The translations under genes and the position numbers were made by a program. The notes under the pieces are model-generated. The model saw only the letters and a program-made list of their open reading frames with translations. It ran no database searches and had not been told where the DNA came from. 32,000 nt of DNA. Origin: Candidatus Syntropharchaeum caldarium. Its GTDB lineage: Archaea > Halobacteriota > Syntropharchaeia > Syntropharchaeales > Syntropharchaeaceae. Location: contig LYOS01000001.1 of NCBI GenBank assembly GCA_001766815.1, positions 300,001 through 332,000 on the forward strand, written 5' to 3'. Below, piece by piece: positions 3,337 to 26,701 of the stretch (positions are counted from its first letter, which is position 1; every line of letters begins with the position of its first letter).

Positions 3337-3399
3337 GGGCACGGTGTATTCGTGTATCTACCGCTGGAGAGTTGATATGATTAAAAGGAGGCAACGAAC

Positions 3400-4657: not shown

Positions 4658-4680
4658 GAAATGAAGCTAAAAAAGACGAT

Positions 4681-4706: not shown

Positions 4707-4734
4707 ATTTGAATGAAGTAAGGAGGTATGGCGA

Positions 4735-4995
4735 ATGAATCTGAATAAGATTGGTAGTTTAGCGATGGCAACTTTGATAGTCCTTGCGTCTGTTACGCTT
4801 CTGAGCATTGTGCCAGTATCGGCATCAGATGATTTCACATTGGGCATCTATGGCAATGCAAACCAGGATGATACAATCGATATGCGGGATGTCACAAAGA
4901 TCGCACGGATGATCTGCTGGCTCGAGGATGAGGTGGATTTAGCAGATGCAAAGTACGATGGGAATATAAATGTGCTTGATATAATCCAGACCGAG
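4735..4995 (+). repeat. approx. 260-nt signal-peptide+dockerin coding module, near-identical copy B (partner at 2050-2310)
   Basis: See copy A. Mismatches noted at ATG->ATA (M/I), GTG->GTC, GCG->GCA and ACT->ACC; three of the four are synonymous. Confidence 0.9.
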
Positions 4996-6000: not shown

Positions 6001-6027
6001 GTGCTTTCCTTTTATCTTTATATCAAT

Positions 6028-7526: not shown

Positions 7527-7548
7527 TACGAACTGTACAGATAAGGAG

Positions 7549-14368: not shown

Positions 14369-15138
14369 AGCTTAAGATAAAAGATCTCACGTTCAGTTAT
14401 CCAGGCCATACGATACTTGATGGTATTACGGTCGAGATTGAGCCTTCAGAGTTCTTCGGTATCATAGGTCCAAACGGGACAGGTAAGACCACGCTCATAA
14501 AGTGCATCGACACAATCCTGAAGCCACACGGCGGTTGCGTCATGCTTGATGGAATGGAAGTGAGAGATCTTGATAAACGAGAGCTTGCAAGAAAGATCGG
14601 ATATGTTCCGCAGCATGCTCCAGGAGGCTTTCCTGCCACGGTATTTGATACGATTCTGATGGGAAGGCGTCCCTATATCGGATGGCGAGTCACGGAGAGC
14701 GATATTGATAAGGTTCTTGAGACCGTGGAACTTCTCGGGATAGAGGAGTTATCACTTCGCACCTTCAGTGAATTAAGCGGTGGTGAGCGGCAGAAGGTAC
14801 TGGTTGCCCGTGCACTCTGTCAGGACCCGGAAGTTCTCCTCCTGGATGAGCCGACATCCAATCTCGATATTAAGCACCAGCTTGAAGTCATGAAGATAAT
14901 ACAGACGATCACAAAAAAGCGTGGAATCCTGGCGATAATGGCGATCCATGATCTCAATTTAGCCTCCCGTTATGCAGACAGGGTCGCGATGATGCACGGG
15001 GGAAAGATTGCAGCGGTTGGTACGCCCGAGGATGTGCTAACCGTTGAGAACATAAGATCGGTCTATGGCGTTGAGGTCGCTGTCAGGAACGATGGGGGTA
15101 AGCCATATATTCTACCTATAAGACCTGTGGAAGTTTGA
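14365..15138 (+). CDS. FepC/BtuD-type ABC ATP-binding protein
   Basis: Walker A 'GPNGTGKTT', signature 'LSGGERQKV', Walker B 'VLLLDEPTSNLD', H-loop 'AIHDLN'. The GTG start at 14365 ('VKLKIKDLTF') overlaps the permease stop (GTGA). The track ORF from 14215 would lie inside the permease gene. Confidence 0.9.
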   Translation: MKLKIKDLTFSYPGHTILDGITVEIEPSEFFGIIGPNGTGKTTLIKCIDTILKPHGGCVMLDGMEVRDLDKRELARKIGYVPQHAPGGFPATVFDTILMGRRPYIGWRVTESDIDKVLETVELLGIEELSLRTFSELSGGERQKVLVARALCQDPEVLLLDEPTSNLDIKHQLEVMKIIQTITKKRGILAIMAIHDLNLASRYADRVAMMHGGKIAAVGTPEDVLTVENIRSVYGVEVAVRNDGGKPYILPIRPVEV

Positions 15139-15330: not shown

Positions 15331-15428
15331 ATAAAGTTATGGGATGTGATTACGGGGTGGAACAAAAAAGAATGCTAATAACAATAATTATATATAGTAG
15401 ATGGGTAATTACATGGTGGAGGAATTAC

Positions 15429-16784
15429 ATGCCATACCCATATTTAAAAGATAGGGTTAGTCTATACAGTGACCGTGGAGAGGTCCTTGCGGAAGATGTA
15501 CCAATCGAAGCAATATCTCCTCTTCACAACCCAGGCGCACAGCAGGTGAAAGACACACTTTGCCGAACCATTCTCTGGAATGCAGAAGAAGCAGAGTATA
15601 AGATAAAGTCAGGGCACCTTGGGGATGAATATATCCACATACCGCGGACGCCATGGCTAGCAATGGAAGATTATGAAATCATGGCGAACATCGAGAAGAT
15701 CGCCAAGCGTGTCGAGGAACTTTTAAGGACAGCACCTGATGATGATACCGAGGTTCAGATACTGAGGGGAGGGCGTTATCTATTGGTTAGGCCACCAACA
15801 AGGCTTGCCTGGTGTGGTATTGAATACCAGACAGCACTGACGAACGTGGCTTACGCCATTGAGCAGGCGTGCGTTGATGTCTGTGATGCTGACTGGAGAA
15901 CATATCCATACATCCATGCCGCCATCTATGGGAGATTCCCGCAGACACCTGAGTATGACGGTTCATCACTCAGATGGATGCTGAAGCCTGTTATCGAGGA
16001 TGAAAACCCGGGCTATGCTCTCAGGAACATGCTGATCAACCATATTGCAGCATGTACAAGATCAAGAACACTTGAGGCTGCCGCCCTATGTTCGCTCCTT
16101 GAGACGATATCAGTTGTCGAGATGGGTGAAATGCTTGGACCATGGTACAGGCACTACCTAATGACGATGGCGTACCAGGGTTTCAATGGAAACGATCTCG
16201 TGCGAGATATACTGAAGGAATGCGGGCAGAACGGTACAATGGCAGATGTCGTTGCATATACGGTCGAGCGAATGATTGATGATGGCGTAATAAAGGAGAA
16301 GAAAACCTTCCCGTCTGGTTACAAGATGTATGAGAGTGTGGATGAGGATCTCAGACATGCCTACCTGTCTTCTGGTATGCTTGCAGCAACCATCGTGAAC
16401 TGTGGTTCAGCCAGGGCAGCACAGGGTGTCATGACCAGTATCTATTACTTCAATGACCAGATGGAAATGGAAACCGCACTGCCATGCACAGGATATGGTG
16501 TCTCGATGGGAACAGCTCTTGCATCAGGGTTCTTCTCGCACACGATCTACGGTGGTTCAGCGCCGGGTCTCTACTCAGGAAACCACGTCATCACCAAGAC
16601 AGGTAAGGTTTACTATATGCCATGTTATGCAGCAGCAGTTGCGATCGATGCTGGAACACAGACCTGGACACCCGAGATGACATCCGAGTTTGTCGGTGAC
16701 GTCTACTCAGAGATCGACATCATCCGTGAGCCGATGGAAGCTATCGCGGAAGGTGCGCTCGAGATAAAGAGTAAGTTTGAATGA
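15429..16784 (+). CDS. mcrB: methyl/alkyl-coenzyme M reductase beta subunit (divergent)
   Basis: The N-terminus 'DRVSLYSDRGEVLAEDVPIEAISPLHNP' matches the McrB consensus ('DLYDDRG..L...VPLEA.SPL.NP'). 'PGYALRNMLINH', 'GSARAAQGV' and 'GFFSHTIYGGSAPG' (beta Phe361/Phe362/Tyr367 region) are all present. The ATG at 15429 is preceded by 'GGAGGAATTAC'; the track ORF start at 15339 is rejected. Confidence 0.93.
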   Translation: MPYPYLKDRVSLYSDRGEVLAEDVPIEAISPLHNPGAQQVKDTLCRTILWNAEEAEYKIKSGHLGDEYIHIPRTPWLAMEDYEIMANIEKIAKRVEELLRTAPDDDTEVQILRGGRYLLVRPPTRLAWCGIEYQTALTNVAYAIEQACVDVCDADWRTYPYIHAAIYGRFPQTPEYDGSSLRWMLKPVIEDENPGYALRNMLINHIAACTRSRTLEAAALCSLLETISVVEMGEMLGPWYRHYLMTMAYQGFNGNDLVRDILKECGQNGTMADVVAYTVERMIDDGVIKEKKTFPSGYKMYESVDEDLRHAYLSSGMLAATIVNCGSARAAQGVMTSIYYFNDQMEMETALPCTGYGVSMGTALASGFFSHTIYGGSAPGLYSGNHVITKTGKVYYMPCYAAAVAIDAGTQTWTPEMTSEFVGDVYSEIDIIREPMEAIAEGALEIKSKFE

Positions 16785-16795
16785 GGTGATCTAAA

Positions 16796-17638
16796 ATGGG
16801 TGCTGAAGAAATTTTAAAGCAGCAGGTTGAAGCTGCCAAAGAAAGGATGGCAAAGCGAAAGTACCAGCGTCAGTATTACCCTGGAAGCACGATGGTTCCC
16901 GAAAACAGAAGGAAGTTCTATGATCCAATCAGGCCACTTGAGGTATTGAGAACGCTTACAGATGAGGACTTCCAGAACCTGCTTGGTTTCAGGGCGCTTG
17001 GACAGCGTTATCTCTCGGTTCACCCACCACTCGAGGAGATCGGTGAGCCAGACGATCCTATACGAGAGCTTGTCCCTGCAGATGCAGGTGCAAAGGCTGG
17101 TGATCGTATCACAACAATGGTGATGAGTGACTCACTGACACACCCGCTCATCGGTCCTTATACCAGAATCTGGATGTATCTTAATCGATTCAGGGGGATC
17201 GATGGCGCTTCATACTCTGCGCGAACAACGCTCGAGATGAGAGAGCGAGAGATGGAAGGTGTCTCTCGTGTCATCATCGAGGCCGAGTGCTTCGATCCTG
17301 CGAGGGATGCATTCAGGCAGTTCGGATGTACTGGGGCGTCATCCAGGCTTGACAAAAACGGGCTCTTCTTTGATCCGATGGCACGAATCGAATACGATCC
17401 TTCAACAGGACACTACATGCAGGTGAAGGACGGATTCGGCATTCCGCTGGATAAACCTGTCGATCTCGGTCCAACACTCCCTGAAGAAGAGAAGGCAAAG
17501 CGAAACGTCATGTACATGAATACAGATGGAAATCCTGTACTTGCAGGTCCTGAGTGGGAAGTACTGGTCGTCAAGCGAAGGATACAGGCGCTGAGGTTCC
17601 TTGCAGGGATGGGACCGTATAAGTTGAATGGTAAGTGA
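16796..17638 (+). CDS. mcrG: methyl/alkyl-coenzyme M reductase gamma subunit (divergent, approx. 25-aa N-terminal extension)
   Basis: 'QYYPGSTMVPENRRKF', 'SVHPPLEEIGEPDDPIRELV', 'GAKAGDR', 'YLNRFRG' and 'FDPAR' match McrG hallmarks. It is 280 aa versus the usual ~250 aa. Confidence 0.92.
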   Translation: MGAEEILKQQVEAAKERMAKRKYQRQYYPGSTMVPENRRKFYDPIRPLEVLRTLTDEDFQNLLGFRALGQRYLSVHPPLEEIGEPDDPIRELVPADAGAKAGDRITTMVMSDSLTHPLIGPYTRIWMYLNRFRGIDGASYSARTTLEMREREMEGVSRVIIEAECFDPARDAFRQFGCTGASSRLDKNGLFFDPMARIEYDPSTGHYMQVKDGFGIPLDKPVDLGPTLPEEEKAKRNVMYMNTDGNPVLAGPEWEVLVVKRRIQALRFLAGMGPYKLNGK

Positions 17639-17648
17639 GGTGATATGA

Positions 17649-19850
17649 ATGGCAGAAGAAATTAAACTTGATCCTGAACTTCTTGCAAAGCTCTGTGAGC
17701 GAAAGATACGATCATGGCAGACCGATAATGCAGAACTCCTGAAAGCTACCAGGGCCGATCTGACTGAAGCCGAGCGTGCAGAGCTTCTCGAGAAGATGTA
17801 TGACGATGAAGAGGCGCTCAAGAAGGTTTTCCAGACCATGGGAAATCCGCAAGTGGCTGTTGGGATGGAATTTACCAGAGAGGGAGGAGATATCAGTGAC
17901 GAGGAGATGAAGGAAATCTGTGATCGATGGGGACTCACAAGAGAAGAAGTCGATCAGATATGTGATGAACTCTGGATCTCCGAACGTGATATTGCAACCT
18001 GTCCTGGTTTCCTCTTCGGAAGAGGTGTTCCACATCCGGACCAGGGAGACACCCCCGAGGCTAAAGATGATCCAACCCAGTCGATCTGGTACCACCGCCT
18101 GATGAAGACACAGATGCAGCTTGCGATGCACGAGTATGGAACGTACCAGCGTGCGATGAATGAGTCGGTACTGGCAAAAGGTTTTGGCGTGGAAGATGTA
18201 CGCGAAGAGACAACCGAGTATCCAGCAGGAGGTATCAGTCAGGTTCCAGAGAAGCTTGAATATGTTAAGGTCTCAAAGGAGATCGAGAAGCAGCGTGGTA
18301 TCTCACTCTACAGACCACACCTGCACTGGCATGGTATCGAGCTTGGACAGAAGCCATACGTCAAGTGGAAGATAACCGCAACGCATATGCAGCGACCATG
18401 CAGGACTTTCGATGGTCTCTCGATGGAACAGATAAACTTCCTGAACAACGCAGCCTGCCACCAGTGGATGGCTGATGTCCAGCGGACACACATATTCGGT
18501 CTGGATCTTGCCCACAGAACGGTTGAGAGACGATTCGGTAAGGAGGTTACCCCTGACTCGATCAACCTGTACATGGAGATGCACAACCACAACATCGCAG
18601 CAGGTTCACTGATCATGGAACACATCGGTGAGACTGATCCAAGGCTTGTTGCAGACTCCTATGTCAAGATTATAACAGGCAACGAGGCGATGCTCGAGGT
18701 GCTCGATCCACAGTACATAATCGATGTGAGGCAACTCTTCCCCGAGTATCAGGCATCACAGATCATGAACCAGATCGGTGATAAGCTCTTTGAGGTTGCA
18801 CGTATCCCGACACTTATCACGATGATAGGTGATCACGGGACAACAAGAGGATGGACAGGACAGCAGGCATCACTTGCGTTCCTCTCAGCATACAGAATCC
18901 CTGCAGGTGAGGCAGTAACAAGTGACTTCGTCTATACGGTTAAGCATGGAGATAACATTTTCATGGGTAACAGGTTGCCATGGAGGCGTGCCAAGATGGT
19001 AAACAATCCTGGCGGTGTATCATTTGGATATGCAGCCGATATATCACAGGCATCACGAGCTCCTGAGTCACAGGATCCATTTGATCCAGTGAACGTCTTC
19101 CTCGAGAGTGTGGCATGGTCTGGATACTATGATATCGGGTATCTCCACAACTACCTTGCAGGCGGTTCATCTGGATGGACACAGGTCATGATCACCCAGG
19201 GCTACTGCTCAGATATCGACAACGACTTCTGTTACAGGACACTCGATGCTGATACAATGACCCACTTCATGGGACTTGACTTTGCACCAACAAGTATGGA
19301 CTCACTCTACACTGCAACTGAAGGTATCGTTAAGTACGGTATGGAGTACTTTGACAAGATGCCGATCGCTCAGGAAACACTCTACGGAGGGCTCCAGCGC
19401 GCAGCTCTGATCTCAGCAGTCGGAGGTGCATCCACGGCATACTTCTGCAGAACTCCAACCTTTGGACTGCCTGGATTCTACCACGGTCTCCTGCTTTGTA
19501 AGGAAGGCTGGAACAGGCTCGGATTCTATGCATCCGATGGTCCACACCAGCAGGGAACATTCCATGCATACACCCTCATCGGTGAGTATGGAGGTCCACT
19601 TGAGTTAAGAGGTCCAAACTACCCAGACTACAACTGGTCAGTCGCACATCTTGGTATATACACTGCATACGTCAATGGGCCACACTTCCTCTGTGGACAT
19701 GGATACTCATGCAACCCGATCGTACACGGAGCATTCGCAGATCCATCGCTACTCTTTGACTTTGCCCACGTAAGAAGAGAGGTTGCAAGAGGAGCGGTCC
19801 ATGAGTTTATGCCCGCAGGTGAGCGTGACGTCGTTATACCGGCACACTGA
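17649..19850 (+). CDS. mcrA: methyl/alkyl-coenzyme M reductase alpha subunit, highly divergent (733 aa; long N-terminal extension; altered active-site motifs)
   Basis: Conserved McrA blocks: 'FLNNAACHQWMADVQRT', 'RRFGKEVTPDSINLY', 'VARIPT', 'VKHG...LPWRRAK..NPGGVSFGY', 'GGLQRA', 'RLGFY', 'ELRGPNYPDY', 'NPIVHGAFAD', 'EFMPAGERDVVIPA'. The first canonical block (KRGIP.YNPD-like 'KQRGISLYRP') only starts at residue ~214. Confidence 0.93.
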   Translation: MAEEIKLDPELLAKLCERKIRSWQTDNAELLKATRADLTEAERAELLEKMYDDEEALKKVFQTMGNPQVAVGMEFTREGGDISDEEMKEICDRWGLTREEVDQICDELWISERDIATCPGFLFGRGVPHPDQGDTPEAKDDPTQSIWYHRLMKTQMQLAMHEYGTYQRAMNESVLAKGFGVEDVREETTEYPAGGISQVPEKLEYVKVSKEIEKQRGISLYRPHLHWHGIELGQKPYVKWKITATHMQRPCRTFDGLSMEQINFLNNAACHQWMADVQRTHIFGLDLAHRTVERRFGKEVTPDSINLYMEMHNHNIAAGSLIMEHIGETDPRLVADSYVKIITGNEAMLEVLDPQYIIDVRQLFPEYQASQIMNQIGDKLFEVARIPTLITMIGDHGTTRGWTGQQASLAFLSAYRIPAGEAVTSDFVYTVKHGDNIFMGNRLPWRRAKMVNNPGGVSFGYAADISQASRAPESQDPFDPVNVFLESVAWSGYYDIGYLHNYLAGGSSGWTQVMITQGYCSDIDNDFCYRTLDADTMTHFMGLDFAPTSMDSLYTATEGIVKYGMEYFDKMPIAQETLYGGLQRAALISAVGGASTAYFCRTPTFGLPGFYHGLLLCKEGWNRLGFYASDGPHQQGTFHAYTLIGEYGGPLELRGPNYPDYNWSVAHLGIYTAYVNGPHFLCGHGYSCNPIVHGAFADPSLLFDFAHVRREVARGAVHEFMPAGERDVVIPAH

Positions 19851-19864: not shown

Positions 19865-20395
19865 ATGGTACTAACATTTGCATCACCCGAATGGTGTGAG
19901 GCTATAGGGAAGAGTATCAGCGAGGGACCACACAGTCACTGGTTCAAGTCATGTATGGAGGATCTCAAGGCAGGACTTGGTATCGGTGAGATTACGATGG
20001 TTGCAAGAGCGACTGATGCTAACGTCGCACTGGTCTGCGAGCTTACAACCGATGGTTGCAAGAACTGCTACATGACAACAGATCCTGATAGTGTACCAGA
20101 TGTCTTTATCGAGCTTTCTGGGACGCTGCACTCATGGCTCTCCGTACTCTGCGGACTCCAGCCAACATTTACAACGCTGGTTGGCCCCGTCTCATCGGAT
20201 ATCGACCGCAGGATCAACATAACGAAGTTTGCGGGAGGAATGGAAAATATCCCTTCACAGATCATGAAACCACTACCGTTGAACCTGCTGTACGCAGTCA
20301 CGCATGCTATAAAGGATGTCTGCATAGGACCAACCGATGTGACAGAGGTTCCAGGTGTGAATCTGGATATACTGATGGGCAGGGTGCACCACTAA
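19865..20395 (+). CDS. hypothetical protein, possibly SCP2-like hydrophobic-ligand-binding fold
   Basis: 176 aa, starting 14 nt after mcrA with a GGAGG RBS. The pattern 'SPEWCEAIGKSI...', a central 'ELTTDGCKNCYMTTDPD..PDVFIELSGTLHSWLSVLCG.L.P' and a helical tail resemble SCP2-type domains. This is a weak by-eye call with no similarity to McrC or McrD. Confidence 0.35.
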   Translation: MVLTFASPEWCEAIGKSISEGPHSHWFKSCMEDLKAGLGIGEITMVARATDANVALVCELTTDGCKNCYMTTDPDSVPDVFIELSGTLHSWLSVLCGLQPTFTTLVGPVSSDIDRRINITKFAGGMENIPSQIMKPLPLNLLYAVTHAIKDVCIGPTDVTEVPGVNLDILMGRVHH

Positions 20396-20408
20396 GGAGG
20401 GATGTTAA

Positions 20409-20822
20409 ATGACTGTTGACAAACCAGAACGAGAAACAGAGATCGCGGGACACAAGGTGAGGATCTACCCGGATCCATCATACCCGAGGCTCTCATGGGA
20501 AGAGGACTACGGCGCACCTGGACATAAGTTCCAGCTCAAAGGTGCAAACGCAGCAGGTCCATGTATTGTGAAGTGTCCAACCTGTGGACACACAATGCGC
20601 AAGTGGCACCTGCCGGGGAAGGCGTTCATCGTGCCACCTGACAGGAAGATCGCAAAGACCGTCTTTGAGTACTGTTCAAAGTGCGGCTCTATTATCGTCC
20701 TGAATGGTGTGCTTGCATCACCATGGGTTTCACCGGAACGTGTCAAGTGTCCCTACGACCTGAGCATAAAGAAGTTCAGTAAGCAGGAAAGAGAAGTTTT
20801 GCCAGACGATAGAGGGTGGTAA
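20409..20822 (+). CDS. small zinc-ribbon protein (4-Cys), function unknown
   Basis: 137 aa with 'CPTCGH' ... 'CSKCGS' about 35 residues apart. An AAGGAGG RBS is present, 13 nt after the preceding stop. Confidence 0.6.
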   Translation: MTVDKPERETEIAGHKVRIYPDPSYPRLSWEEDYGAPGHKFQLKGANAAGPCIVKCPTCGHTMRKWHLPGKAFIVPPDRKIAKTVFEYCSKCGSIIVLNGVLASPWVSPERVKCPYDLSIKKFSKQEREVLPDDRGW

Positions 20823-20846: not shown

Positions 20847-20855
20847 GAGGTTTTG

Positions 20856-21365
20856 ATGGACGACGAACTCGATGAAATACGGCAGAAGAAGCTTGATGAG
20901 CTGACAGAAAAGATGGGAATCCAGGTGATGCAGAAGAAAGAGCGTAAGGTGGAGGAAGATGATGGTGGAATCTATGATCTTGTACTTCCCGGATGGATAC
21001 CACCATGGGTTGCAGAGAAGATTGCTCCCGAGGTGGGTGTTGAGCTTGTGGAGCGAAAGATACAGGGAGTGGTAACAGATCCTGAGACAGGTGCACCATC
21101 TGATATGATGAAGATGGCGCTGTGCATCAGGGGATCGCTTAACGACATAGAACGATTCAAAATGGCAGCGGTTGAACAGCTCAAGCAGTTTATGAAGAGT
21201 ACAAGTGAGCGAAAACTCACAGAACCATCAAGCTGGTGGAAACACTATCATATCGACGAATGGGATGATGTCAGAAAGAACAAGAACTATGACCCTGATG
21301 AAGAATGGAAGAGGTTTAAGAAAGCGGGGTTGGATAAATTCAACATTGAAGAAGTTTTTAAATGA
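20856..21365 (+). CDS. acidic hypothetical protein
   Basis: 169 aa from the ATG at 20856 (the track starts at an adjacent TTG, 20853). The N-terminal helix 'DDELDEIRQKKLDEL' is reminiscent of PDCD5-like proteins, but the rest is unrecognised. The C-terminus is Trp/Asp-rich. Confidence 0.55.
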   Translation: MDDELDEIRQKKLDELTEKMGIQVMQKKERKVEEDDGGIYDLVLPGWIPPWVAEKIAPEVGVELVERKIQGVVTDPETGAPSDMMKMALCIRGSLNDIERFKMAAVEQLKQFMKSTSERKLTEPSSWWKHYHIDEWDDVRKNKNYDPDEEWKRFKKAGLDKFNIEEVFK

Positions 21366-21368: not shown

Positions 21369-22946
21369 ATGCAACTGCTTAAATTAAAAAATGTATCACT
21401 TGTTCTGAATGAAACAGAGTTACTTAGCTGTTTAAATTTTGAGATCAATGAGCAGGATATCATTGGTATCACTGGCAGGCGTGGTGCTGGAAAAAGCCTG
21501 CTACTACATCTGATAAAAGGGGTCGAGGGATACGAACCTGTAGCAGGAGAGATACGCTATCACATACGTTTCTGTGAAAGATGTAAACGTGTGGAGTTAC
21601 CTTCAAAGCCCACCTGTCCGATCTGCCACTCGCAGATGGAATTGCTCGATATAGACCTGCATGCTGATAAACAGATCCATGACGCGATAAAAAGACGTGT
21701 AGGACTGATGTTTCAGAAGACACAGGCACTCTTCTCATTCAGAACTGTGGAGGAGAATATACTCGAAGCCCTCAGAACAGCAAAGTTCCCATATGAGATG
21801 CGGGATGAGCGTACCCGTGAGATCATCGAGATGATGAATATAACACATAGAAGGGAGTTTGCCTGTATGGATTTGAGCTGTGGTGAGAAGCAACGGGTAA
21901 TAGTTGGGAGACTCATCGCACTCGACCCGCTCCTGATGCTCCTTGATTCGCCAGAAAGTTTCCTTGATCCTTTAACCACCTCGATGATCTGCAGTGCGAT
22001 ACGTGCTGCAGGTCTCACGGTTATGATGAGTTCATCGAGACCTCAAATATTCGAAGGTATCGCTGACAGGATACTTTTTCTCGATAAAGGAAAGATTGAG
22101 CAGTTTGACAGGGTCGATCCAGAGATGTTTGTGCAATCCACGCAATTAACTCCCACGCAAAGATCAGAAGGGGCGCCCCTCATACGGCTTAAAGGCGTAT
22201 GTAAGTACTATGCCATGCCGGTAAACCTCTACAGCAAAGAAGCGACGCATGTCAGGGCGGTTGACGATCTTGATATCACAATCCAGCGGGGTGAGATACA
22301 CGGGCTTGTGGGTGTAAGTGGATCTGGAAAGAGCACGATTCTCAAGATTATCTGGGGAGATGAGAAGACAAAAGATTTTAGGGGTAACTGCGAGTTCACA
22401 TTCACTGATGGAAGATATCGCCTGGATAGTCTGGAGGCGATCGCTCGTGCACGTACTCACATCTCATATCTTGGTCAGGACTCGTGTCTAATTCCATCCC
22501 GTACGATCTTCGATAACCTGAAGTCCTTTATCGCTGAAGATAAATTGCGGGAAGCAGCAATCGATAATGCTATGGAAGTCTTACTGCGCTTTGGATTTAG
22601 TGAGGAGGAGGTGCTCTCGCTCTATGATCGATTGCCATCTGAGATCAGTGCAGGTGAGGCACAGTTAATACTTATATCGATGGCAATTCTCCGCGATCCG
22701 GAGGTGATCCTGCTCGATGATCCCACATCTGCACTTGATGCTCAATCTGCAGCAAAACTTGCAGACGTGATACTTCAGATCAGAGCTACGTGTGGAACCT
22801 CGTTCCTCATAGCTTCAAACGACACCGATCTTCTTACAATATGTGATCATATTGATCTGATTCAGGAAGGACGCATGGCATACTGTGGCACGTCTCTCAA
22901 TGAATGCCTTAAGATCATGGACATAAACAATTCCCAAAGCTTATAA
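21369..22946 (+). CDS. atwA: methyl-coenzyme M reductase system component A2-like protein (tandem ABC ATPase domains)
   Basis: 525 aa with two ABC domains. The first is 'GITGRRGAGKSLLLHLIKGVEGYEPVAGEIRYHIRFCERCKRVELPSKPTCPICHS', that is, Walker A followed by the Cys4 insert remembered as typical of component A2. Signatures are 'LSCGEKQRV' and 'ISAGEAQLI'. The second Walker A is 'GVSGSGKST'. Confidence 0.8.
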   Translation: MQLLKLKNVSLVLNETELLSCLNFEINEQDIIGITGRRGAGKSLLLHLIKGVEGYEPVAGEIRYHIRFCERCKRVELPSKPTCPICHSQMELLDIDLHADKQIHDAIKRRVGLMFQKTQALFSFRTVEENILEALRTAKFPYEMRDERTREIIEMMNITHRREFACMDLSCGEKQRVIVGRLIALDPLLMLLDSPESFLDPLTTSMICSAIRAAGLTVMMSSSRPQIFEGIADRILFLDKGKIEQFDRVDPEMFVQSTQLTPTQRSEGAPLIRLKGVCKYYAMPVNLYSKEATHVRAVDDLDITIQRGEIHGLVGVSGSGKSTILKIIWGDEKTKDFRGNCEFTFTDGRYRLDSLEAIARARTHISYLGQDSCLIPSRTIFDNLKSFIAEDKLREAAIDNAMEVLLRFGFSEEEVLSLYDRLPSEISAGEAQLILISMAILRDPEVILLDDPTSALDAQSAAKLADVILQIRATCGTSFLIASNDTDLLTICDHIDLIQEGRMAYCGTSLNECLKIMDINNSQSL

Positions 22947-22970: not shown

Positions 22971-23561
22971 ATGGTTCTTAAAGTTGACTTTGAAGAGATA
23001 GCAATGGGTAAGGGTGTCTATCCAACGCTGGCGGTGGGTGTACGCATCGAGAGTCCTGAACCATTTCAGGTTGTAGAACTCTTAAGCTGTGTGTGCACGA
23101 TCGAGACTGCTTTTAACGAAGAATCGATGATATTTCTGGGGTACGCACCGATCAGAGACTATCCGCAGATTGCAGAACATGCGCTTGTTGCGTTTGACAT
23201 TGAGCTCGATGGAAGAAAGCTTGCAACCATTGAAGAGCTGCGTGATGGCGGCGATCTCTGGTTACGTCTTGGAGGCGTCATGAAATATGCTGTCCTCTAT
23301 GAGCCAACAGAGTTTGGGTACGATAAGACGAAAGTTGTAAGGGATACCTTCGTGGTCAGGCAATTTGGACAGGCAAGAATACGTGTCGAGAAGGAAGAGT
23401 GGGAAAATTATCTATCGTTCCTCGCGCTCAAGCGAACAGTGTTGCTTGACACAGATACCATCACAAAGCTCGATAAGGTAAGGCCCATGATAAATCCTGA
23501 GTATGAGGACAGGGACATCATCAACGAATTGCTGGAGATGTATCTGAAGAAAAAAATTTAA
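22971..23561 (+). CDS. hypothetical protein
   Basis: 196-aa ORF, co-oriented, 24 nt after the A2-like gene and 9 nt before the chaperonin-like gene. No recognisable motif. Confidence 0.55.
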   Translation: MVLKVDFEEIAMGKGVYPTLAVGVRIESPEPFQVVELLSCVCTIETAFNEESMIFLGYAPIRDYPQIAEHALVAFDIELDGRKLATIEELRDGGDLWLRLGGVMKYAVLYEPTEFGYDKTKVVRDTFVVRQFGQARIRVEKEEWENYLSFLALKRTVLLDTDTITKLDKVRPMINPEYEDRDIINELLEMYLKKKI

Positions 23562-23570: not shown

Positions 23571-25370
23571 ATGGCTGTAGATAAAAGAGAAAAGATACGA
23601 TATTTCAAAAAAACGCTCGAAGAGGAAGCGCAGCGGGCGATGCAGGAGTTCCAGATACATCAGGCTATTGCCGCAGAGGTAGCGAGGGAGCGCAAAATTG
23701 AAGAGCCAAAAAAAGTGCTGGATGAGAACATATCGGTGATAAGGGCATTCCATGACGCCGTAAAAACAGCATTTGGTCCCCGGGGTTCGTATAAGATGAT
23801 GGTGGATTCCTATGGTGAAGTCGATGTCACATGTGACGGTTCACTCATCATCGATGAGATGGATATAGAGCATCCAGCAGGCAAGATGCTGGCATCCACA
23901 ATCGAGAACCTGAACGAACTTGGGGATGGTGCGACAAAGACGGTGATACTCACAGGAGCACTCCTCAGGGAGGCAGAATCACTGATTTCGATGAAGATAC
24001 ATCCTGCTACGGTCATACGGGGCTATGAACTTGCATCGGCCTTTATTAGAGATACACTCAATGATCTGGCCATCGTGAGTGATGACGCCACATTGCTTGA
24101 GGTTGCAAGAACATCGCTTACCTCCCTCCCTGATCTTTCCGATGAACTGCATGAGCGTATCGCCGCGACGGTCGTCGATGTTGCAAAGTCGGTAACTGAG
24201 GAGGATGAAGTAGGGAAGAGAATAGTACAGCGAAAACGTGTGTGCGTGGAGCGGTCTGTTGGTGGAAGCACGTCTGAGCTTGAAACCCTGGATGGCATCA
24301 TTATCAACAGAGATCTTCTTGATGAAGATATGCCAGATCGTGTGGAAGATGCGAGGATTGCGTTGCTTGACTTCCCGCTGGAGATAAAGATGAAACGCGT
24401 GGAAGAGAAGTTCATGCGCGAGCGGCAGGGTAGTGATAAGCCGTATATTGCAATTAATGCTCCACCAGGTGTCAGCCCTGTGAAGGCGATGCTGGATCAT
24501 CTCGACAGGTTGATGCAGGATGATATCGATAAGTTGCAGCGTCTTGGTGTCAATGTTCTCTTCTGTCACAGGACGATCGATGAGGTTGCTAAGCGCTATC
24601 TAACAAAAGCCGGGATATTTGCGGTAAAACGGGTGGAAAGTAGTGTTCTCAGGGATCTTGAGAAGACCACCGGTGCAAAGACTGTAATTCTGCTTAAAGA
24701 TCTTTGCGAGGATGATATAGGAACCGCCTCGCTTGTTGAAGTGAGAAGATTTGGCAGAAACACGATGATCGTGGTTGAAGGCTGTCCTGGCGAGAGATTC
24801 AGGTCGGTTATGCTTCGAGGTGGAACACTTCATTCGATAAATGAGGTCCAGCGCGCATTTATGCGAACACTTAAGGTGGTTGCAGCTGCTATCGAGGAGA
24901 ATAAAGTGATCACTGGGGGTGGGCATACCGAGATTGAACTTGCGTTACGCCTCAGAACGTACGCCAATAGACTTTCAGGGAAGGAGCAGTTTGCAGTCTT
25001 ATCGTACGCAGATGCCCTTGAGATGGTCCCTGCAGCACTTGCAGAGAATATGGGCTATAACAGGGTTGATAAAATCGTTGAACTACGTTCAAAGCACAGA
25101 TCAGGCGATAAAATCGATACGAAACTGGTTGAACCACTCAGGATAGAGCGGCAGGTGGTATCTTCGGCAACAGAGCTTGCATGCGCCCTGCTAAGGATAG
25201 ATTACCAGATAAATGCCAAGAACAAGCTATCGACGCTGGATCAACAGTCCGTGGAACCACACCCAGATACTCCATCGGAATGCTTAGAGTATATGGCACC
25301 GCGACAGTGGGGCCTATGGGATGCACGAATGCGCACAGACAAGAGATCAGTTTACTGGAAGAATGACTGA
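23571..25370 (+). CDS. thermosome-like group II chaperonin (Cpn60/TCP-1 family) homologue, divergent
   Basis: 'AFGPRGSYKMMVDSYGEVDVTCDGSLIIDEMDIEHPAGKM', 'LGDGATKTVILTGALLREAE', 'IHPATVIRGYELA', 'GVNVLFCHRTIDEVAKRYLTKAGIFAVKRV' and 'VITGGGHTEIELALRL' align block-for-block with thermosome subunits. It has a ~45-aa N-terminal extension and an atypical Trp-rich C-terminus. An AAGGAG RBS is present. Confidence 0.85.
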   Translation: MAVDKREKIRYFKKTLEEEAQRAMQEFQIHQAIAAEVARERKIEEPKKVLDENISVIRAFHDAVKTAFGPRGSYKMMVDSYGEVDVTCDGSLIIDEMDIEHPAGKMLASTIENLNELGDGATKTVILTGALLREAESLISMKIHPATVIRGYELASAFIRDTLNDLAIVSDDATLLEVARTSLTSLPDLSDELHERIAATVVDVAKSVTEEDEVGKRIVQRKRVCVERSVGGSTSELETLDGIIINRDLLDEDMPDRVEDARIALLDFPLEIKMKRVEEKFMRERQGSDKPYIAINAPPGVSPVKAMLDHLDRLMQDDIDKLQRLGVNVLFCHRTIDEVAKRYLTKAGIFAVKRVESSVLRDLEKTTGAKTVILLKDLCEDDIGTASLVEVRRFGRNTMIVVEGCPGERFRSVMLRGGTLHSINEVQRAFMRTLKVVAAAIEENKVITGGGHTEIELALRLRTYANRLSGKEQFAVLSYADALEMVPAALAENMGYNRVDKIVELRSKHRSGDKIDTKLVEPLRIERQVVSSATELACALLRIDYQINAKNKLSTLDQQSVEPHPDTPSECLEYMAPRQWGLWDARMRTDKRSVYWKND

Positions 25371-26701
25371 GCCCGATGCTCTTTCACGATCCGTGTAACA
25401 AGAACTGCTTCCCTGCTTGGGTCTTTCAATCCTGAAAGCACCTTTTTATATTTTTTATCAGTCAGCGCAGAGGGTAGTGGGGATGCTGCGATCGCAGTGA
25501 GATATAACTCCAGCATTCTGCGCTCTGCCACGGTGAGATTGTGTCGCTTCCCGATTCTGGTATCATCCATCTTAAGTACCGGATTCTCATCGTCATCAAG
25601 TTCCATGACCCGTGCTGCAAGCGCAGTGCCAGGGATGGGTGATGCTATGTTGACGAATACTTCCTCGAGCATCAGCTCACCGATCAGCTCTTTTGTGGCT
25701 TCATGGTCATCCTCAGTCTCGCCAGGATAGCCTGTGATAAACGCACCGATTACCATCCTGATGCCGCAATCACGCGCCATTTCGACAGCTTCGATGATAC
25801 GATCCACGTTTATCCCCTTATTCATCTCATTAAGGATGCGGTTGCTGCCTGACTCGATGCCAAAGGAGATGTAGCCTGCTGTATAGTCACGGATCGCCTC
25901 AAGTGCATGTTCTGAGACCATATCCACCCTGACATCAGCACACTTTACGTTCTTTGGGCCAAGGATACCACTCACTGTTTTGAGCAGTTCTGTGAAGGCG
26001 ATCTCGTTCAGACCCTTATCCCAGCCGTATTGTGTCACGGTCTCAAGTCCAAGCCCGATGCTCTCTATTCCGTGTTTTTTCAGGAGTTTGACCTCTTTCA
26101 CGATCTCTTCCAGTGGTCTCGATCTTATATCACTGCCAAAGAGTCGATGAGCGAGACAGAAGCTGCACCTCCCACCACATCCCCTGTGCGTCTCGATTGC
26201 GGTTGAAACACCGCGCATATCATGATGTTTAAGATCTGGTGGTATGAACGGCATCGAGCGCTTCTCGATCTCAAAAGGCTTTCTCGATCCGGTTACAACG
26301 ACCTCACCATCATGAACGAAGGCAATTCCCTCGATACCTTCAGGATCTTTCACTCCTGCTCTGACTGCATCCAGGAGTTCAGGTGTTGTCTCCTCTCCTT
26401 CTCCGATTACAACGAAATCGATCTCAGGCAGGTACTCAAAGATCAGTTCAGGTACAAGTGAGAGTGAACCTCCTGCTATAATCAGCGGTGGATTGATGCC
26501 ATGTTTTATCTTGAAGAGTTCTGCTTTCAGATCCAGAAGGTGCGTGGTTGCACCAAGACTTAAACCCAGCACATCTGTCTCAAGCGACCAGTCAAAGGCT
26601 TTTCTGATCTCAACTTTATAACCCTCATCATGCAGGGTCCCACCTATAACCATGGCACCGTACGCATAAAAATCTGGAGATATAAGTGTTATCTTCTTCA
26701 T
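25352..26701 (-). CDS. B12-binding-domain radical SAM protein (class B radical SAM, COG1032-like)
   Basis: An N-terminal Rossmann-like B12-binding domain ('KITLISPDFYAYGAMVIGGTL...IIAGGSL') is followed by the CX3CX2C motif 'GCGGRCSFC'. 449 aa. The 3' end overlaps the convergent chaperonin-like gene by 19 nt. Confidence 0.85.
   Translation of the reverse strand: MKKITLISPDFYAYGAMVIGGTLHDEGYKVEIRKAFDWSLETDVLGLSLGATTHLLDLKAELFKIKHGINPPLIIAGGSLSLVPELIFEYLPEIDFVVIGEGEETTPELLDAVRAGVKDPEGIEGIAFVHDGEVVVTGSRKPFEIEKRSMPFIPPDLKHHDMRGVSTAIETHRGCGGRCSFCLAHRLFGSDIRSRPLEEIVKEVKLLKKHGIESIGLGLETVTQYGWDKGLNEIAFTELLKTVSGILGPKNVKCADVRVDMVSEHALEAIRDYTAGYISFGIESGSNRILNEMNKGINVDRIIEAVEMARDCGIRMVIGAFITGYPGETEDDHEATKELIGELMLEEVFVNIASPIPGTALAARVMELDDDENPVLKMDDTRIGKRHNLTVAERRMLELYLTAIAASPLPSALTDKKYKKVLSGLKDPSREAVLVTRIVKEHRAQSFFQ

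What the first reader, a model, noticed from the sequence alone, without database searches (positions are those of the whole stretch)
23571..25370. Thermosome-like chaperonin as last gene of the mcr operon, with ATPase motifs eroded
SEEN: the equatorial, intermediate and apical blocks of group II chaperonins are all present. However, 'GPKGMDKM' is 'GPRGSYKM' (Asp->Tyr). The phosphate-binding 'GDGTTT' is 'GDGATKT'. The 'RGG(T/S).H..DE.ER(A/S)..DA' region reads 'RGGTLHSINEVQRAFMRT', so Arg-Thr replaces the conserved 'DA' pair whose Asp is the hydrolysis residue (GroEL D398 / Mm-cpn D386 equivalent). There is a ~45-aa charged N-terminal extension, and the C-terminus 'APRQWGLWDARMRTDKRSVYWKND' is unlike the usual Gly/Met-rich tail. 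ESTABLISHED: those motifs bind and hydrolyse ATP in chaperonins, and thermosome genes are normally stand-alone housekeeping genes. INFERENCE: this may be a client-dedicated, possibly ATPase-dead chaperonin-like scaffold for folding or assembly of the oversized reductase. That association is not part of the known MCR maturation set as far as I know.
Basis: partly seen in the sequence, partly recalled or inferred. Interest (0 to 1): 0.75.

Follow-up and report, generated by a model that had tools for sequence, protein, structure and literature searches.

The report
Reductase-linked chaperonin with eroded ATP site
The last gene of an ethane-type coenzyme M reductase operon encodes a very rare, fast-evolving relative of the archaeal protein-folding machine (thermosome) that has lost key ATP-handling residues, always travels with an unknown partner gene, and lies next to reductase-activation genes wherever the contig reaches upstream unbroken, which suggests a helper dedicated to building that enzyme.

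Summary
Observation confirmed. ORF 23571-25370 (+) is a full-length group II chaperonin (Pfam PF00118, E=7e-118; AF2 pLDDT 84.5; TM up to 0.91 to thermosomes). The motif changes are real and broader than reported.

In M. maripaludis chaperonin (Mm-cpn) numbering:
- D45->Y, T93->A, T95->K
- nucleotide-sensing-loop K161->L
- catalytic D386->R
- a 14-residue deletion that removes an adenine-pocket hairpin
- D60, D91, T94 and GGG403-405 are kept

It is not a housekeeping copy. Searches of 5.8 billion clusters and 1.84 billion representatives found only four clade members: the window (Methanosarcinales MAG), an 82% relative, and two ANME-1c (Methanospirareceae-type) proteins at 41-48% identity. The clade is monophyletic (100/100 NJ bootstraps) and about twice as divergent as canonical thermosomes are from each other.

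All four share a conserved aromatic/charged C-terminal tail and sit directly after an orphan ~195-aa protein found nowhere else. Three of four contigs also carry MCR component A2 and an orphan ~170-aa protein. Three of four carry the MCR glutamine C-methyltransferase. One carries Mmp3 and Mmp17.

dN/dS of 0.21 indicates purifying selection. D386 is kept in the ANME-1c pair, so ATPase loss is lineage-specific.

Best reading: a client-dedicated chaperonin-like assembly or maturation factor for methyl/alkyl-CoM reductase. Function is inferred, not shown.

The parts
23571..25370 (+). Divergent group II chaperonin paralog (599 aa), last gene of the co-directional cluster
   Evidence: PF00118 E=6.7e-118. 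AF2 pLDDT 84.5, pTM 0.76. Foldseek TMt 0.83-0.91 to thermosomes. At most 41% identity to any canonical thermosome. dN/dS 0.21 against the 82% relative.
23571..23714 (+). N-terminal region, residues 1-48, about 29 aa longer than canonical and predicted as one long helix (5-40)
   Evidence: Alignments. AF2 secondary structure. It replaces the hydrophobic N-terminal strand motif (QPIxILxEG) of canonical thermosomes. dN/dS 0.44.
23775..23798 (+). GPRGSYKM: Mm-cpn D45 -> Y74
   Evidence: D45 is D in 105/105 canonical sequences. The clade has Y/C/K/K.
23922..23939 (+). P-loop GDGATK: T93 -> A121 and T95 -> K123, with D91 and T94 kept
   Evidence: The equivalent Thr89 and Thr91 of Ch-CPN hydrogen-bond the beta/gamma-phosphates (PMC5635000).
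24111..24146 (+). Remodelled nucleotide-sensing loop TSLTSLPDLSDE: K161 -> L plus a 2-aa insertion
   Evidence: K161 is K in 99 and R in 6 of 105 canonical sequences, and L in all four clade members. The NSL Lys contacts the gamma-phosphate (PMC5635000).
24411..24479 (+). Lid (helical protrusion) insertions: a 12-aa insertion FMRERQGSDKPY and a 6-aa insertion GVSPVK just after APP (the aa 298-303 stretch PPGVSP spans its start)
   Evidence: Alignment. AF2 confidence is low at residues 287-295.
24816..24872 (+). RGGTLHSINEVQRAFMRTL: catalytic D386 -> R432 and A387 -> T433
   Evidence: D386 is D in 105/105 canonical sequences, R in the window and P0001, and D in P0122 and P0270. PDB entries 3j02, 3izh and 5w74 use the D386A mutant to capture pre-hydrolysis/ATP-incubated and open ADP-bound states. 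This segment has the second-highest dN/dS in the protein (0.39), after the N-terminal extension (0.44).
25095..25118 (+). Junction of the 14-residue deletion (Mm-cpn 469-482) that removes the adenine-pocket hairpin; M483 -> K
   Evidence: G472 (105/105 conserved) and F476 are deleted. The adenine ring in Ch-CPN is lined by Phe461, Met469 and Val474 in this region (PMC5635000).
25260..25367 (+). Clade-specific C-terminal tail HPDTPxxC.xY...WGLW(D/E)AR.R...YWK, replacing the Gly/Met-rich tail
   Evidence: Conserved in all four clade members across 41-48% overall identity. AF2 predicts short helices at 569-575 and 581-590.
22971..23561 (+). Orphan 196-aa partner protein (beta-sandwich plus C-terminal helices), immediately upstream of the chaperonin
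   Evidence: It sits directly upstream of the chaperonin in all four contexts. A profile search of 5.8 billion clusters finds only these four proteins. 46% identity between subclades. dN/dS 0.15. No Pfam or NCBIfam match. AF2 pLDDT 61.8 and no significant fold match.
21369..22946 (+). Divergent MCR component A2-like double ABC ATPase (525 aa) with both catalytic Glu and both H-loop His replaced
   Evidence: TIGR03269 scores 342.6 bits, below its 517 cutoff. 34-36% identity to the bona fide A2 next to the ANME-1c chaperonins (556 and 534 bits). Walker B reads LLDSPES and LLDDPTS against LLDEPTG.
20853..21365 (+). Orphan ~170-aa protein with the SWWKHYH..DDVR..K.Y.P motif, co-conserved with A2
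   Evidence: Homologs lie next to A2 in L028 (178 aa) and L031 (174 aa): 34-35% identity, E=1e-25.
15339..19850 (+). ECR-like alkyl-CoM reductase genes mcrB (15339-16784), mcrG (16796-17638) and mcrA (17649-19850; 733 aa with a ~175-aa N-terminal extension)
   Evidence: Pfam and NCBIfam matches. The best solved relative of McrA is the ethyl-CoM reductase alpha subunit 7b1s, at 507 bits against 434 bits for MCR.
19865..20822 (+). Two small unknown ORFs in the operon: 176 aa, and 137 aa with a zinc-ribbon-like pattern
   Evidence: No family match. No homolog in the ANME-1c contigs. Not Mmp17.
25352..26701 (-). MCR glutamine C-methyltransferase (B12-binding radical SAM), convergent with the chaperonin and overlapping its 3' end by 19 nt
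   Evidence: TIGR04014 scores 461.5 bits, above its 360 cutoff. The same convergent gene is present in L001, and a 63% identical homolog lies 4 kb from the chaperonin in L031.

Best explanation
The gene encodes a lineage-restricted, fast-evolving paralog of the archaeal group II chaperonin. I propose it has been recruited, together with an obligatory orphan partner (~195 aa), into the gene set that matures and activates methyl/alkyl-coenzyme M reductase.

Shown:
- an intact three-domain chaperonin fold with an enlarged lid;
- a new conserved aromatic/charged C-terminal tail;
- purifying selection;
- strict co-occurrence with the partner gene;
- recurrent linkage to component A2, an orphan ~170-aa protein and the McrA glutamine C-methyltransferase, in two archaeal orders;
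- a remodelled nucleotide pocket.

Inferred mechanism: the protein binds a reductase subunit through its conserved apical domain and clade-specific tails. McrA is the most likely client. McrA's buried Gln has to be methylated, its F430 site has to be loaded, and its N-terminal helix is unfolded during activation. The chaperonin-like protein would hold McrA in a state competent for modification and assembly, alongside the partner protein, A2 and the radical SAM methylase.

In the ANME-1c members the three catalytic acids are kept. A Lys/Arg at P-loop position 95 may take over the gamma-phosphate contact of the lost sensing-loop Lys, so these versions may still cycle with ATP.

In the window's lineage, D386R, T93A, M483K and the hairpin deletion make ATP hydrolysis, and probably tight ATP binding, unlikely. 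There the protein most likely acts as an ATP-independent holdase or scaffold, or as a non-catalytic adaptor that hands the client to the housekeeping thermosome. This would parallel BBS6/BBS12 working with CCT in eukaryotes.
For: - Family and fold.
- Motif table against 105 canonical thermosomes with verified Mm-cpn numbering.
- Residue roles from the literature. The P-loop Thr and Asp bind phosphates and Mg. The sensing-loop Lys (or an equivalent basic residue) is required for ATPase activity. Two Asp activate the attacking water. The adenine pocket is lined by residues in the deleted hairpin (PMC5635000). D386A structures include pre-hydrolysis ATP-bound (3j02) and ATP-incubated (3izh) states (PDB titles).
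- Rarity and clade: only four members in 5.8 billion clusters and 1.84 billion representatives; monophyly 100/100.
- Synteny:
  - window, L002 and L029: mcrBGA, unk176, unk137, unk170, A2-like, unk196, cpn, with the Gln C-methyltransferase convergent;
  - L001: unk196, cpn, then the Gln C-methyltransferase convergent;
  - L028: A2 and unk178 divergent from unk194 and cpn;
  - L031: Gln C-methyltransferase, Mmp17, Mmp3 C-terminal part, unk174 and A2 divergent from unk192, cpn and a CobM-like methylase.
- The partner family exists only in these four contexts.
- Purifying selection: cpn 0.21, partner 0.15, and the apical domain most constrained at 0.13.
- Controls: three canonical thermosome genes, one of them from the ANME-1c family, sit among housekeeping genes.
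- A2, Mmp3 and Mmp17 are structural components of the MCR activation complex, in which the McrA N-terminal helix is unfolded (PMC12176620).
- The field expects that MCR assembly may need chaperones (PMC9081873).
Against: - There are no experimental data of any kind: no expression, interaction, oligomeric state or ATPase measurement.
- The evidence base is only four sequences from fragmentary metagenomic contigs.
- Two of the four contexts show no mcrABG within reach.
- In L001, A2 is replaced upstream by an HTH/transposase-like gene.
- D60, D91, T94, GGG403-405 and E490 are retained even in the window protein, so residual nucleotide binding cannot be excluded.
- The ANME-1c members keep D386, so an ATP-driven folding cycle may be the ancestral and still relevant mode.
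- The window's A2-like protein is itself degenerate. That could mean the whole module in this lineage is a decaying second copy rather than a specialised scaffold.
- The client is a guess.
- A canonical thermosome in the same genome was not demonstrated.
Confidence: 0.55

Rival explanations
1. It is still a genuine ATP-driven folding chamber, a specialised thermosome with a rewired active site. The Lys/Arg at P-loop position 95 would replace the lost sensing-loop Lys. In the window protein, R432 or another residue would support catalysis or ATP-triggered closure without D386.
For: - D60, D91, T94, GGG403-405 and E490 are kept in all four members, and D386 is kept in the ANME-1c pair.
- Loss of K161 and gain of K/R95 co-occur in all four members.
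- A basic residue contacting the gamma-phosphate can sit at a different structural position, as Arg155 does in group III chaperonins (PMC5635000).
- The fold and lid are intact, and both equatorial segments are under strong constraint (dN/dS 0.15).
Against: - In the window protein and P0001 the invariant D386 is Arg, with no nearby acidic residue.
- T93 is Ala.
- The adenine-pocket hairpin, including the invariant G472, is deleted and M483 is Lys.
- Mutation of the equivalent Asp cuts ATPase in group II and III chaperonins (PMC5635000; D386A structures).
- The catalytic-helix segment (aa 401-445) is among the least constrained parts of the protein (dN/dS 0.39; only the N-terminal extension is higher at 0.44).
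Confidence: 0.2
2. It is a generic extra thermosome subunit, for example a stress or temperature isoform that co-assembles with the housekeeping subunits. On this view its position next to mcr and A2 genes has no client-specific meaning.
For: - Archaea often carry several thermosome paralogs (established knowledge).
- It passes the NCBIfam thermosome_beta cutoff, 434 against 400.
- Two of the four contexts lack mcrABG within the contig.
Against: - Linkage to A2 and to two orphan proteins is kept between two orders at 41-48% identity, despite inversion and reordering of the genes.
- The partner protein exists only with this clade.
- The clade is twice as divergent as canonical paralogs are from each other.
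- One third of the near-invariant thermosome positions are changed, including the N-terminal strand used for ring contacts.
- Canonical thermosome genes in related lineages sit in housekeeping contexts.
Confidence: 0.13
3. It is a decaying relic: a horizontally acquired second copy of an MCR-activation module that is losing function in the Methanosarcinales host.
For: - ATP-site residues are eroded in parallel in the chaperonin and in the adjacent A2-like ATPase of the same operon.
- The distribution is patchy and extremely rare.
- An IS-type HTH gene lies next to the module in L001.
Against: - The 599-aa ORF is intact in three independent assemblies and in the 82% relative.
- dN/dS is 0.21 overall and 0.13 in the apical domain, with dS 0.48, which is enough divergence for stop codons or frameshifts to have appeared.
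- A strong Shine-Dalgarno sequence is present with tight spacing to the upstream gene.
- The C-terminal tail and the partner gene are conserved.
Confidence: 0.07

Closest known systems
Archaeal thermosome (group II chaperonin; e.g. Mm-cpn 3kfb, T. acidophilum 1a6d, Thermococcus KS-1 1q3r)
   Same: - Same three-domain fold with a built-in lid, full-length PF00118 match, TM 0.83-0.91.
- Keeps D60, D91, T94, GGG403-405 and E490.
   Different: - 34-41% identity only, with 44 of 132 near-invariant positions changed.
- D45, T93, T95, K161 and D386 are replaced, and the adenine-pocket hairpin is deleted.
- The lid is enlarged.
- The N-terminal strand is replaced by a long helix.
- The Gly/Met tail is replaced by a conserved aromatic/charged motif.
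- It is encoded inside an alkyl-CoM reductase operon with an obligatory partner gene, rather than as a stand-alone housekeeping gene.
Eukaryotic chaperonin-like BBS6/MKKS, BBS10 and BBS12
   Same: - Highly diverged group II chaperonin paralogs that keep the domain architecture.
- They carry specific insertions, and some have an altered ATP-hydrolysis motif.
- They are dedicated to assembling one complex (the BBSome) and act as adaptors to the canonical chaperonin (PMC5534436).
   Different: - They are eukaryotic and derive from CCT8, so the origin is independent.
- Their client is different.
- Their role is shown experimentally; here it is inferred from synteny only.
- Whether the archaeal protein forms rings or binds the housekeeping thermosome is unknown.
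Known MCR maturation/activation set (McrC, McrD, A2/AtwA, Mmp3, Mmp7, Mmp17, DUF2098, PTM enzymes)
   Same: It is genomically embedded among A2, Mmp3, Mmp17 and the Gln C-methyltransferase.
   Different: No chaperonin is part of the purified activation complex or of published accessory lists (PMC12176620, PMC9081873, PMC9584954). The module is restricted to four known sequences, so it is not a general requirement.
Asgard tandem-fused double group II chaperonins (~1050 aa; P0121, P0271-P0273, P0123)
   Same: - They are the next-best hits and the NJ sister of the clade (their C-terminal halves).
- The C-halves also lack D386 (S/N/K) and carry a Lys in the P-loop.
   Different: - They are fused two-module proteins.
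- They keep K161, lack the tail motif and the partner gene, and the P-loop Lys is at position 94 rather than 95.
- The sister grouping may be long-branch attraction.

Membership tests
Group II chaperonin / thermosome (Cpn60_TCP1) | Full-length match to the family profile | tested here: met
   PF00118 E=6.7e-118, profile positions 3-489 of 490.
Group II chaperonin / thermosome (Cpn60_TCP1) | Equatorial-intermediate-apical fold with a built-in helical-protrusion lid | tested here: met
   AF2 pLDDT 84.5. Foldseek TMt 0.83-0.91 to thermosomes. The lid is present but 18 aa longer.
Group II chaperonin / thermosome (Cpn60_TCP1) | Curated thermosome score thresholds | tested here: inconclusive
   TIGR02339 438.5, below its 671 cutoff. 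thermosome_alpha 433.9, below 450. thermosome_beta 434.2, above 400.
Group II chaperonin / thermosome (Cpn60_TCP1) | Canonical ATP site: GDGTT(T/S) P-loop, sensing-loop Lys161, and water-activating Asp60 and Asp386 | tested here: not met
   GDGATK, K161L and D386R. Only D60, D91 and T94 are kept. The adenine-pocket hairpin is deleted.
Group II chaperonin / thermosome (Cpn60_TCP1) | Double-ring 16-18-mer and ATP-driven lid closure | not testable with these tools
   Only a monomer model is available. The N-terminal strand motif used in the inter-subunit beta-sheet is replaced by a predicted helix (PMC5635000).
Housekeeping thermosome of the host genome | Groups with the thermosomes of its own taxonomic lineage and sits in a housekeeping gene context | tested here: not met
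   It clusters with ANME-1c paralogs and not with Methanosarcinales thermosomes (P0016, P0026, P0051), 100/100. Its context is an mcr operon, whereas the canonical controls sit in housekeeping contexts.
Housekeeping thermosome of the host genome | Is the only thermosome gene in the genome | not testable with these tools
   The rest of MAG GCA_003661135.1 could not be queried. The GTDB representative scan found no close relative. A canonical thermosome was found in another MAG of the ANME-1c family.
MCR/ACR maturation-activation gene set | Conserved genomic linkage to established components (A2, Mmp3, Mmp17, PTM enzymes, mcrABG) | tested here: met
   A2 is adjacent in 3 of 4 contexts. The Gln C-methyltransferase is present in 3 of 4. 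Mmp3 and Mmp17 are present in 1 of 4. mcrBGA is present in 1 of 4.
MCR/ACR maturation-activation gene set | Physical or functional interaction with the reductase | not testable with these tools
   Needs pull-down or co-expression experiments. The published activation complex contains no chaperonin (PMC12176620).
Chaperonin-like assembly adaptors (BBS6/10/12 type) | Diverged chaperonin fold with a degenerate ATP motif and lineage-specific insertions | tested here: met
   compared with PMC5534436. This is an analogy of mechanism, not common descent.
Chaperonin-like assembly adaptors (BBS6/10/12 type) | Does not form rings and bridges the client to the canonical chaperonin | not testable with these tools
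   No multimer prediction or biochemistry was available.

The most novel reading that the evidence does not exclude
Archaea that use unusual methyl/alkyl-CoM reductases (a GoM-Arc1-like ethane-type lineage and thermophilic ANME-1c) carry a previously unrecognised, horizontally shared assembly module. It comprises a chaperonin-derived scaffold with a relocated or lost ATP site, an orphan beta-sandwich co-factor, an orphan Trp-rich protein and A2. The module would hold McrA open for radical-SAM methylation, F430 loading and Ni(I) activation. This would be the first client-dedicated chaperonin-like assembly factor in archaea, and a missing ingredient for heterologous production of active ACR and ANME MCR.
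Probability: 0.3. Interest if true: 0.8.

Novelty: new variant of a known kind. Interest (0 to 1): 0.64.

Why it matters
Producing active methyl- and alkyl-coenzyme M reductases in heterologous hosts is a long-standing bottleneck. Reviews state that unknown chaperones and accessory proteins may be required (PMC9081873). A chaperonin paralog and an orphan partner that co-travel with A2, Mmp3/Mmp17 and a McrA-modifying radical SAM enzyme give concrete, directly testable candidates to co-express with ECR-like or ANME-1 enzymes.

For chaperonin biology, this would be a prokaryotic counterpart of the eukaryotic BBS chaperonin-like adaptors. It also offers a natural series for study. The ANME-1c versions keep all three catalytic acids, while the Methanosarcinales versions carry D386R and the hairpin deletion. 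That series shows a folding ATPase being converted into a possibly nucleotide-independent scaffold, with an apparent move of the gamma-phosphate-contacting basic residue from the sensing loop to the P-loop.

Its extreme rarity limits its generality: four sequences in about 15 billion proteins.

Tried and rejected
1. I tried to restore the motifs by alignment. MAFFT L-INS-i with a verified Mm-cpn sequence and a 108-sequence alignment both give the same substitutions, and there is no acidic residue near R432. The eroded-motif claim stands.
2. I looked for close relatives in GTDB species representatives. Only canonical thermosomes at 31-37% identity turned up.
3. A JGI metagenome scan with the partner-protein profile returned only the already known 6983-bp contig.
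4. I tested for a viral or mobile-element origin. The partner profile and a tail-motif DNA pattern against IMG/VR gave no true hits; the 56 pattern matches are chance, and tblastn was negative.
5. I tried to identify the partner (unk196), unk170, unk176 and unk137 through Pfam and NCBIfam at permissive E-values, AF2 plus Foldseek, and a pairwise test of unk176 against Mmp17. No significant assignment resulted. unk196 gives only a low-confidence generic beta-sandwich.
6. I tried to find a canonical thermosome in the same MAG. Looking up P0042 led to a different MAG of the ANME-1c family. P0003 and P0026 served only as context controls.
7. I checked whether DUF2111 next to the canonical thermosome P0003 is a methanogenesis marker. 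There was no NCBIfam hit.
8. Literature searches for any link between thermosome or chaperonin and mcr, ACR, ECR or A2, and for the MAG accession, found nothing relevant.
9. Rfam and tRNA scans of the window found nothing.
10. I rejected the pseudogene reading on the basis of dN/dS and intact ORFs.


Full report
**1. What is at the coordinates**

ORF 23571-25370 (+) encodes 599 aa. It matches Pfam Cpn60_TCP1 end to end (E=6.7e-118; residues 62-550 against profile positions 3-489 of 490). Its best solved relatives are archaeal thermosomes and a reconstructed ancestral group II chaperonin, at 34-39% identity.

Against NCBIfam it falls well below the thermosome_arch cutoff (438.5 against 671.1 bits). 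It just passes thermosome_beta (434.2 against 400).

An AlphaFold2 model built on a 108-sequence alignment is confident (mean pLDDT 84.5, pTM 0.76). It superposes on thermosome subunits with target-normalised TM-scores of 0.83-0.91. The three-domain fold and the built-in lid are therefore intact.

**2. The motif claims**

I verified that my Mm-cpn reference sequence is identical to PDB 3kfb_A. I used it to number alignments against 105 canonical thermosomes.
- D45 (D in 105/105) -> Y74
- T93 (T in 105/105) -> A121
- T95 (T in 88, S in 17) -> K123
- D386 (D in 105/105) -> R432
- A387 -> T433

There is no acidic residue near R432, so no realignment can rescue the catalytic Asp.

- The sensing-loop Lys K161 (K in 99, R in 6) is Leu, with a 2-residue insertion in the loop.
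- A 14-residue deletion removes Mm-cpn 469-482, including the invariant G472 and F476. M483 becomes Lys.
- N59 -> C, E374 -> L, D/E378 -> N, E/D381 -> Q.
- The lid carries 12-aa and 6-aa insertions.
- The N-terminal hydrophobic strand motif is replaced by a predicted 36-residue helix.
- The Gly/Met tail is replaced by HPDTPSECLEYMAPRQWGLWDARMRTDKRSVYWKND.

D60, D91, T94, GGG403-405 and E490 are kept. In total, 44 of the 132 columns that are >=95% conserved among canonical thermosomes are changed.

Residue roles come from An et al. 2017 (PMC5635000):
- The first and third P-loop Thr and the Asp hydrogen-bond the beta/gamma-phosphates and bind Mg.
- A basic residue on the gamma-phosphate is required for ATPase activity. 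In group II this is the sensing-loop Lys.
- Two Asp (the D60 and D386 equivalents) activate the attacking water.
- The adenine ring is lined by residues in the segment deleted here.

D386A Mm-cpn structures include pre-hydrolysis ATP-bound and ATP-incubated states (3j02, 3izh), plus an open ADP-bound lidless form (5w74) (PDB titles).

**3. It is not a housekeeping thermosome**

- A word-indexed search of 5.8 billion protein clusters returned one 82% relative (P0001), a 100% identical fragment from a Guaymas-type 'Methanosarcinales archaeon' MAG (P0002, GCA_003661135.1), and otherwise thermosomes at 39% identity or less.
- An exhaustive HMMER pass over 1.84 billion 50%-identity representatives added one further cluster. 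This is P0122, 48% identical, and it aligns through the C-terminal tail.
- Searching with P0122 added P0270, 69% identical to P0122.
- P0122 is annotated as Candidatus Methanospirareceae, the ANME-1c family of Methanophagales.
- GTDB species representatives, JGI metagenome contigs and IMG/VR contain no further member.

In an NJ tree of 118 sequences the four proteins are monophyletic in 100 of 100 bootstraps. Their mean Kimura distance to canonical thermosomes is 1.1-1.2, against 0.56 among the canonical ones. The canonical thermosomes of Methanosarcinales and of Methanospirareceae do not group with them.

The nearest branch is the C-terminal halves of ~1050-aa tandem-fused Asgard chaperonins. 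That may be long-branch attraction.

**4. Conserved neighbourhood**

- **Window.** The gene closes a run of nine co-directional genes with 3-30 nt spacers:
  - mcrB, mcrG and mcrA. The reductase is ECR-like: 507 bits to ethyl-CoM reductase alpha subunit 7b1s. McrA has a ~175-aa N-terminal extension.
  - Two unknown small ORFs.
  - An orphan 170-aa protein.
  - A divergent A2-like double ABC ATPase.
  - An orphan 196-aa protein.
  - The chaperonin.

  An AAGGAG site lies 5 nt upstream of its ATG and overlaps the upstream stop codon. The MCR glutamine C-methyltransferase (TIGR04014, 461 bits) converges on it and overlaps its 3' end by 19 nt.
- **Other assemblies.** The same layout recurs in three independent assemblies of the same or a very close organism (L002, L029, L030).
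- **The 82% relative (L001, 2.9 kb).** The order is unk196, cpn, then the convergent methyltransferase. An HTH/transposase-like gene lies upstream.
- **ANME-1c contig L028.** Bona fide A2 (556 bits, above the 517 cutoff) and an unk170 homolog are divergent from an unk196 homolog and cpn.
- **L031.** The Gln C-methyltransferase (63% identical to the window's), Mmp17, an Mmp3 C-terminal-domain protein, an unk170 homolog and A2 (534 bits) are divergent from an unk196 homolog, cpn, a CobM/CbiF-like tetrapyrrole methylase and a geranylgeranyl-reductase-like protein.

A profile of the four unk196 homologs finds exactly those four proteins in 5.8 billion clusters. The partner and the chaperonin are therefore strictly co-inherited, and they diverge at the same rate (46% against 41-48% identity).

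As controls, three canonical thermosome genes lie among housekeeping genes. One of them is from a Methanospirareceae MAG. The neighbours include EF-2, TFB, SepRS, Cdc6, DNA ligase and RIO2.

A2, Mmp3 and Mmp17 are structural subunits of the ATP-driven MCR activation complex. In that complex the McrA N-terminal helix is unfolded and held by Mmp3 and A2 (PMC12176620). No chaperonin is part of that complex or of published accessory lists.

**5. Is it functional?**

Nei-Gojobori dN/dS between the window gene and the 82% relative is 0.21, with dS 0.48. The partner gene gives 0.15.

| Region | dN/dS |
|---|---|
| Apical domain | 0.13 |
| Equatorial segments | 0.15 |
| Catalytic-helix segment (aa 401-445) | 0.39 |
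| N-terminal extension | 0.44 |

This pattern fits a protein that is maintained for substrate or partner binding, with relaxed constraint on the former catalytic helix. It argues against a pseudogene.

**6. How the ATP site evolved**

All four members share D45 -> non-acidic, T93 -> A/S, T95 -> K/R, K161 -> L, E374 -> L/S, 378 -> N, 381 -> Q, and a deletion in the hairpin.

The ANME-1c pair keeps D386, G472 and M483, and its deletion is only 6 residues.

Loss of the sensing-loop Lys always comes with gain of a basic residue at the P-loop position that normally hydrogen-bonds the gamma-phosphate. I infer, without a test, that the positive charge was relocated. On that reading the ANME-1c proteins may remain ATPases.

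The window lineage then added D386R, T93A, M483K and the full 14-residue deletion. Hydrolysis there is very unlikely, and nucleotide binding is doubtful.

The A2-like ATPase in the same operon has lost both Walker-B catalytic Glu (LLDSPES and LLDDPTS) and both H-loop His. The ANME-1c A2 proteins keep them. The two ATPases of the module have therefore degenerated in parallel in this lineage.

**7. Interpretation**

The best-supported reading is a client-dedicated chaperonin-like factor of methyl/alkyl-CoM reductase maturation. It would act with its orphan partner, A2 and the Gln methyltransferase.

The likely client is McrA. Its modified Gln (the GGLQRAA motif is present in the window McrA) and its F430 site are buried, and they must be reached before final folding.

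In the window organism the protein probably works without ATP hydrolysis, in one of two ways:
- as a holdase or scaffold;
- as an adaptor to the housekeeping thermosome. The closest mechanistic precedent is the eukaryotic BBS6/BBS10/BBS12 chaperonin-like proteins. These have diverged ATP motifs and insertions, do not form rings, and bridge BBS7 to CCT during BBSome assembly (PMC5534436).

This is inference from sequence and synteny only. Oligomeric state, nucleotide binding, partners and client are all untested.

Rival readings are scored in the report sections:
- an ATP-driven chamber with a rewired site;
- a generic extra subunit that is linked by chance;
- a decaying transferred module.

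**8. Verdict**

Dedication to the MCR/ACR machinery gains real comparative support. 'ATPase-dead' holds only for the Methanosarcinales pair. The conserved link is to the A2-centred maturation genes rather than to the oversized reductase as such.

It is a new variant of a known kind. It is interesting for MCR/ACR biogenesis and for chaperonin evolution. Its weight is limited by extreme rarity (four sequences) and by the absence of any functional data.

Noticed in passing
window 21369-22946 (+): The A2-like double ABC ATPase in the operon has lost both Walker-B catalytic glutamates (LLDSPES at aa 191-197 and LLDDPTS at aa 448-454). It has also lost both H-loop histidines, and both signature motifs are altered (LSCGEKQR, ISAGEAQ). 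It scores 342 bits against the 517 cutoff of TIGR03269. The A2 genes next to the ANME-1c chaperonins keep all of these motifs.
   Followed up: partly
window 17649-19850 (+), also 15339-16784 and 16796-17638: The ECR-like McrA is 733 aa because of a ~175-aa acidic, helical N-terminal extension with no family match. McrB (481 aa) and McrG (280 aa) are also extended at the N-terminus. The best solved relative is the ethyl-CoM reductase 7b1s.
   Followed up: partly
window 339-15138 (+): A long co-directional block lies directly upstream of the reductase operon. It holds a CobN-type large chelatase (9648-13280), a ChlI/ChlD-VWA ATPase (7549-9651), three periplasmic-binding proteins, a FecCD permease, an ABC-2 permease and several ABC ATPases. 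This is possibly a metal or tetrapyrrole uptake and insertion island serving F430 or B12.
   Followed up: no
window 19865-20395 and 20409-20822 (+): Two small ORFs lie between mcrA and unk170, of 176 aa and 137 aa. The 137-aa ORF has two CxxC-type zinc-ribbon-like motifs. They occupy the position where mcrC/mcrD-type accessory genes might be expected. They match no family and have no homolog in the ANME-1c contigs.
   Followed up: partly
window 20853-21365 (+); L028 3349-3885 (-); L031 2945-3469 (-): An orphan ~170-aa protein is always adjacent to A2. It carries a conserved Trp/His-rich C-terminal motif (SWWKHYH..(W/F)DDVR..K.Y.P), reminiscent in composition of the chaperonin's own new C-terminal tail.
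   Followed up: partly
L001 3-314 (-): In the 82% relative, the gene upstream of the partner-chaperonin pair is a winged-HTH (HTH_29, IS630-transposase-like N-terminus) protein on the opposite strand, in place of A2. This hints at rearrangement or mobility of the module.
   Followed up: partly
L031 7578-8291 (+): A CobM/CbiF-like tetrapyrrole C-methyltransferase (205 bits, below the equivalog cutoff) lies directly downstream of the ANME-1c chaperonin, followed by a geranylgeranyl-reductase-like flavoprotein that is also present in L028. Both are candidate F430-modifying enzymes.
   Followed up: no
proteins P0121, P0123, P0271-P0273 (Asgard MAGs): These are ~1050-aa tandem fusions of two group II chaperonin modules in Lokiarchaeia, Freyarchaeota and Jordarchaeum. 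Both halves have a Lys in the P-loop (GDGTK(T/A) in most; P0123 and the P0273 N-half differ at position 93: GDGSKS, GDGAKT). Except in P0123 (N-half Q, C-half K), the N-half keeps D386 while the C-half has S/N at D386. This looks like a built-in active/inactive pair.
   Followed up: partly
L090 7113-7766 (+); L031 9754-10440 (+): A DUF169 gene lies immediately upstream of a canonical Methanosarcina-type thermosome gene. Another lies about 2 kb downstream of the divergent chaperonin in L031. This may be coincidence.
   Followed up: no
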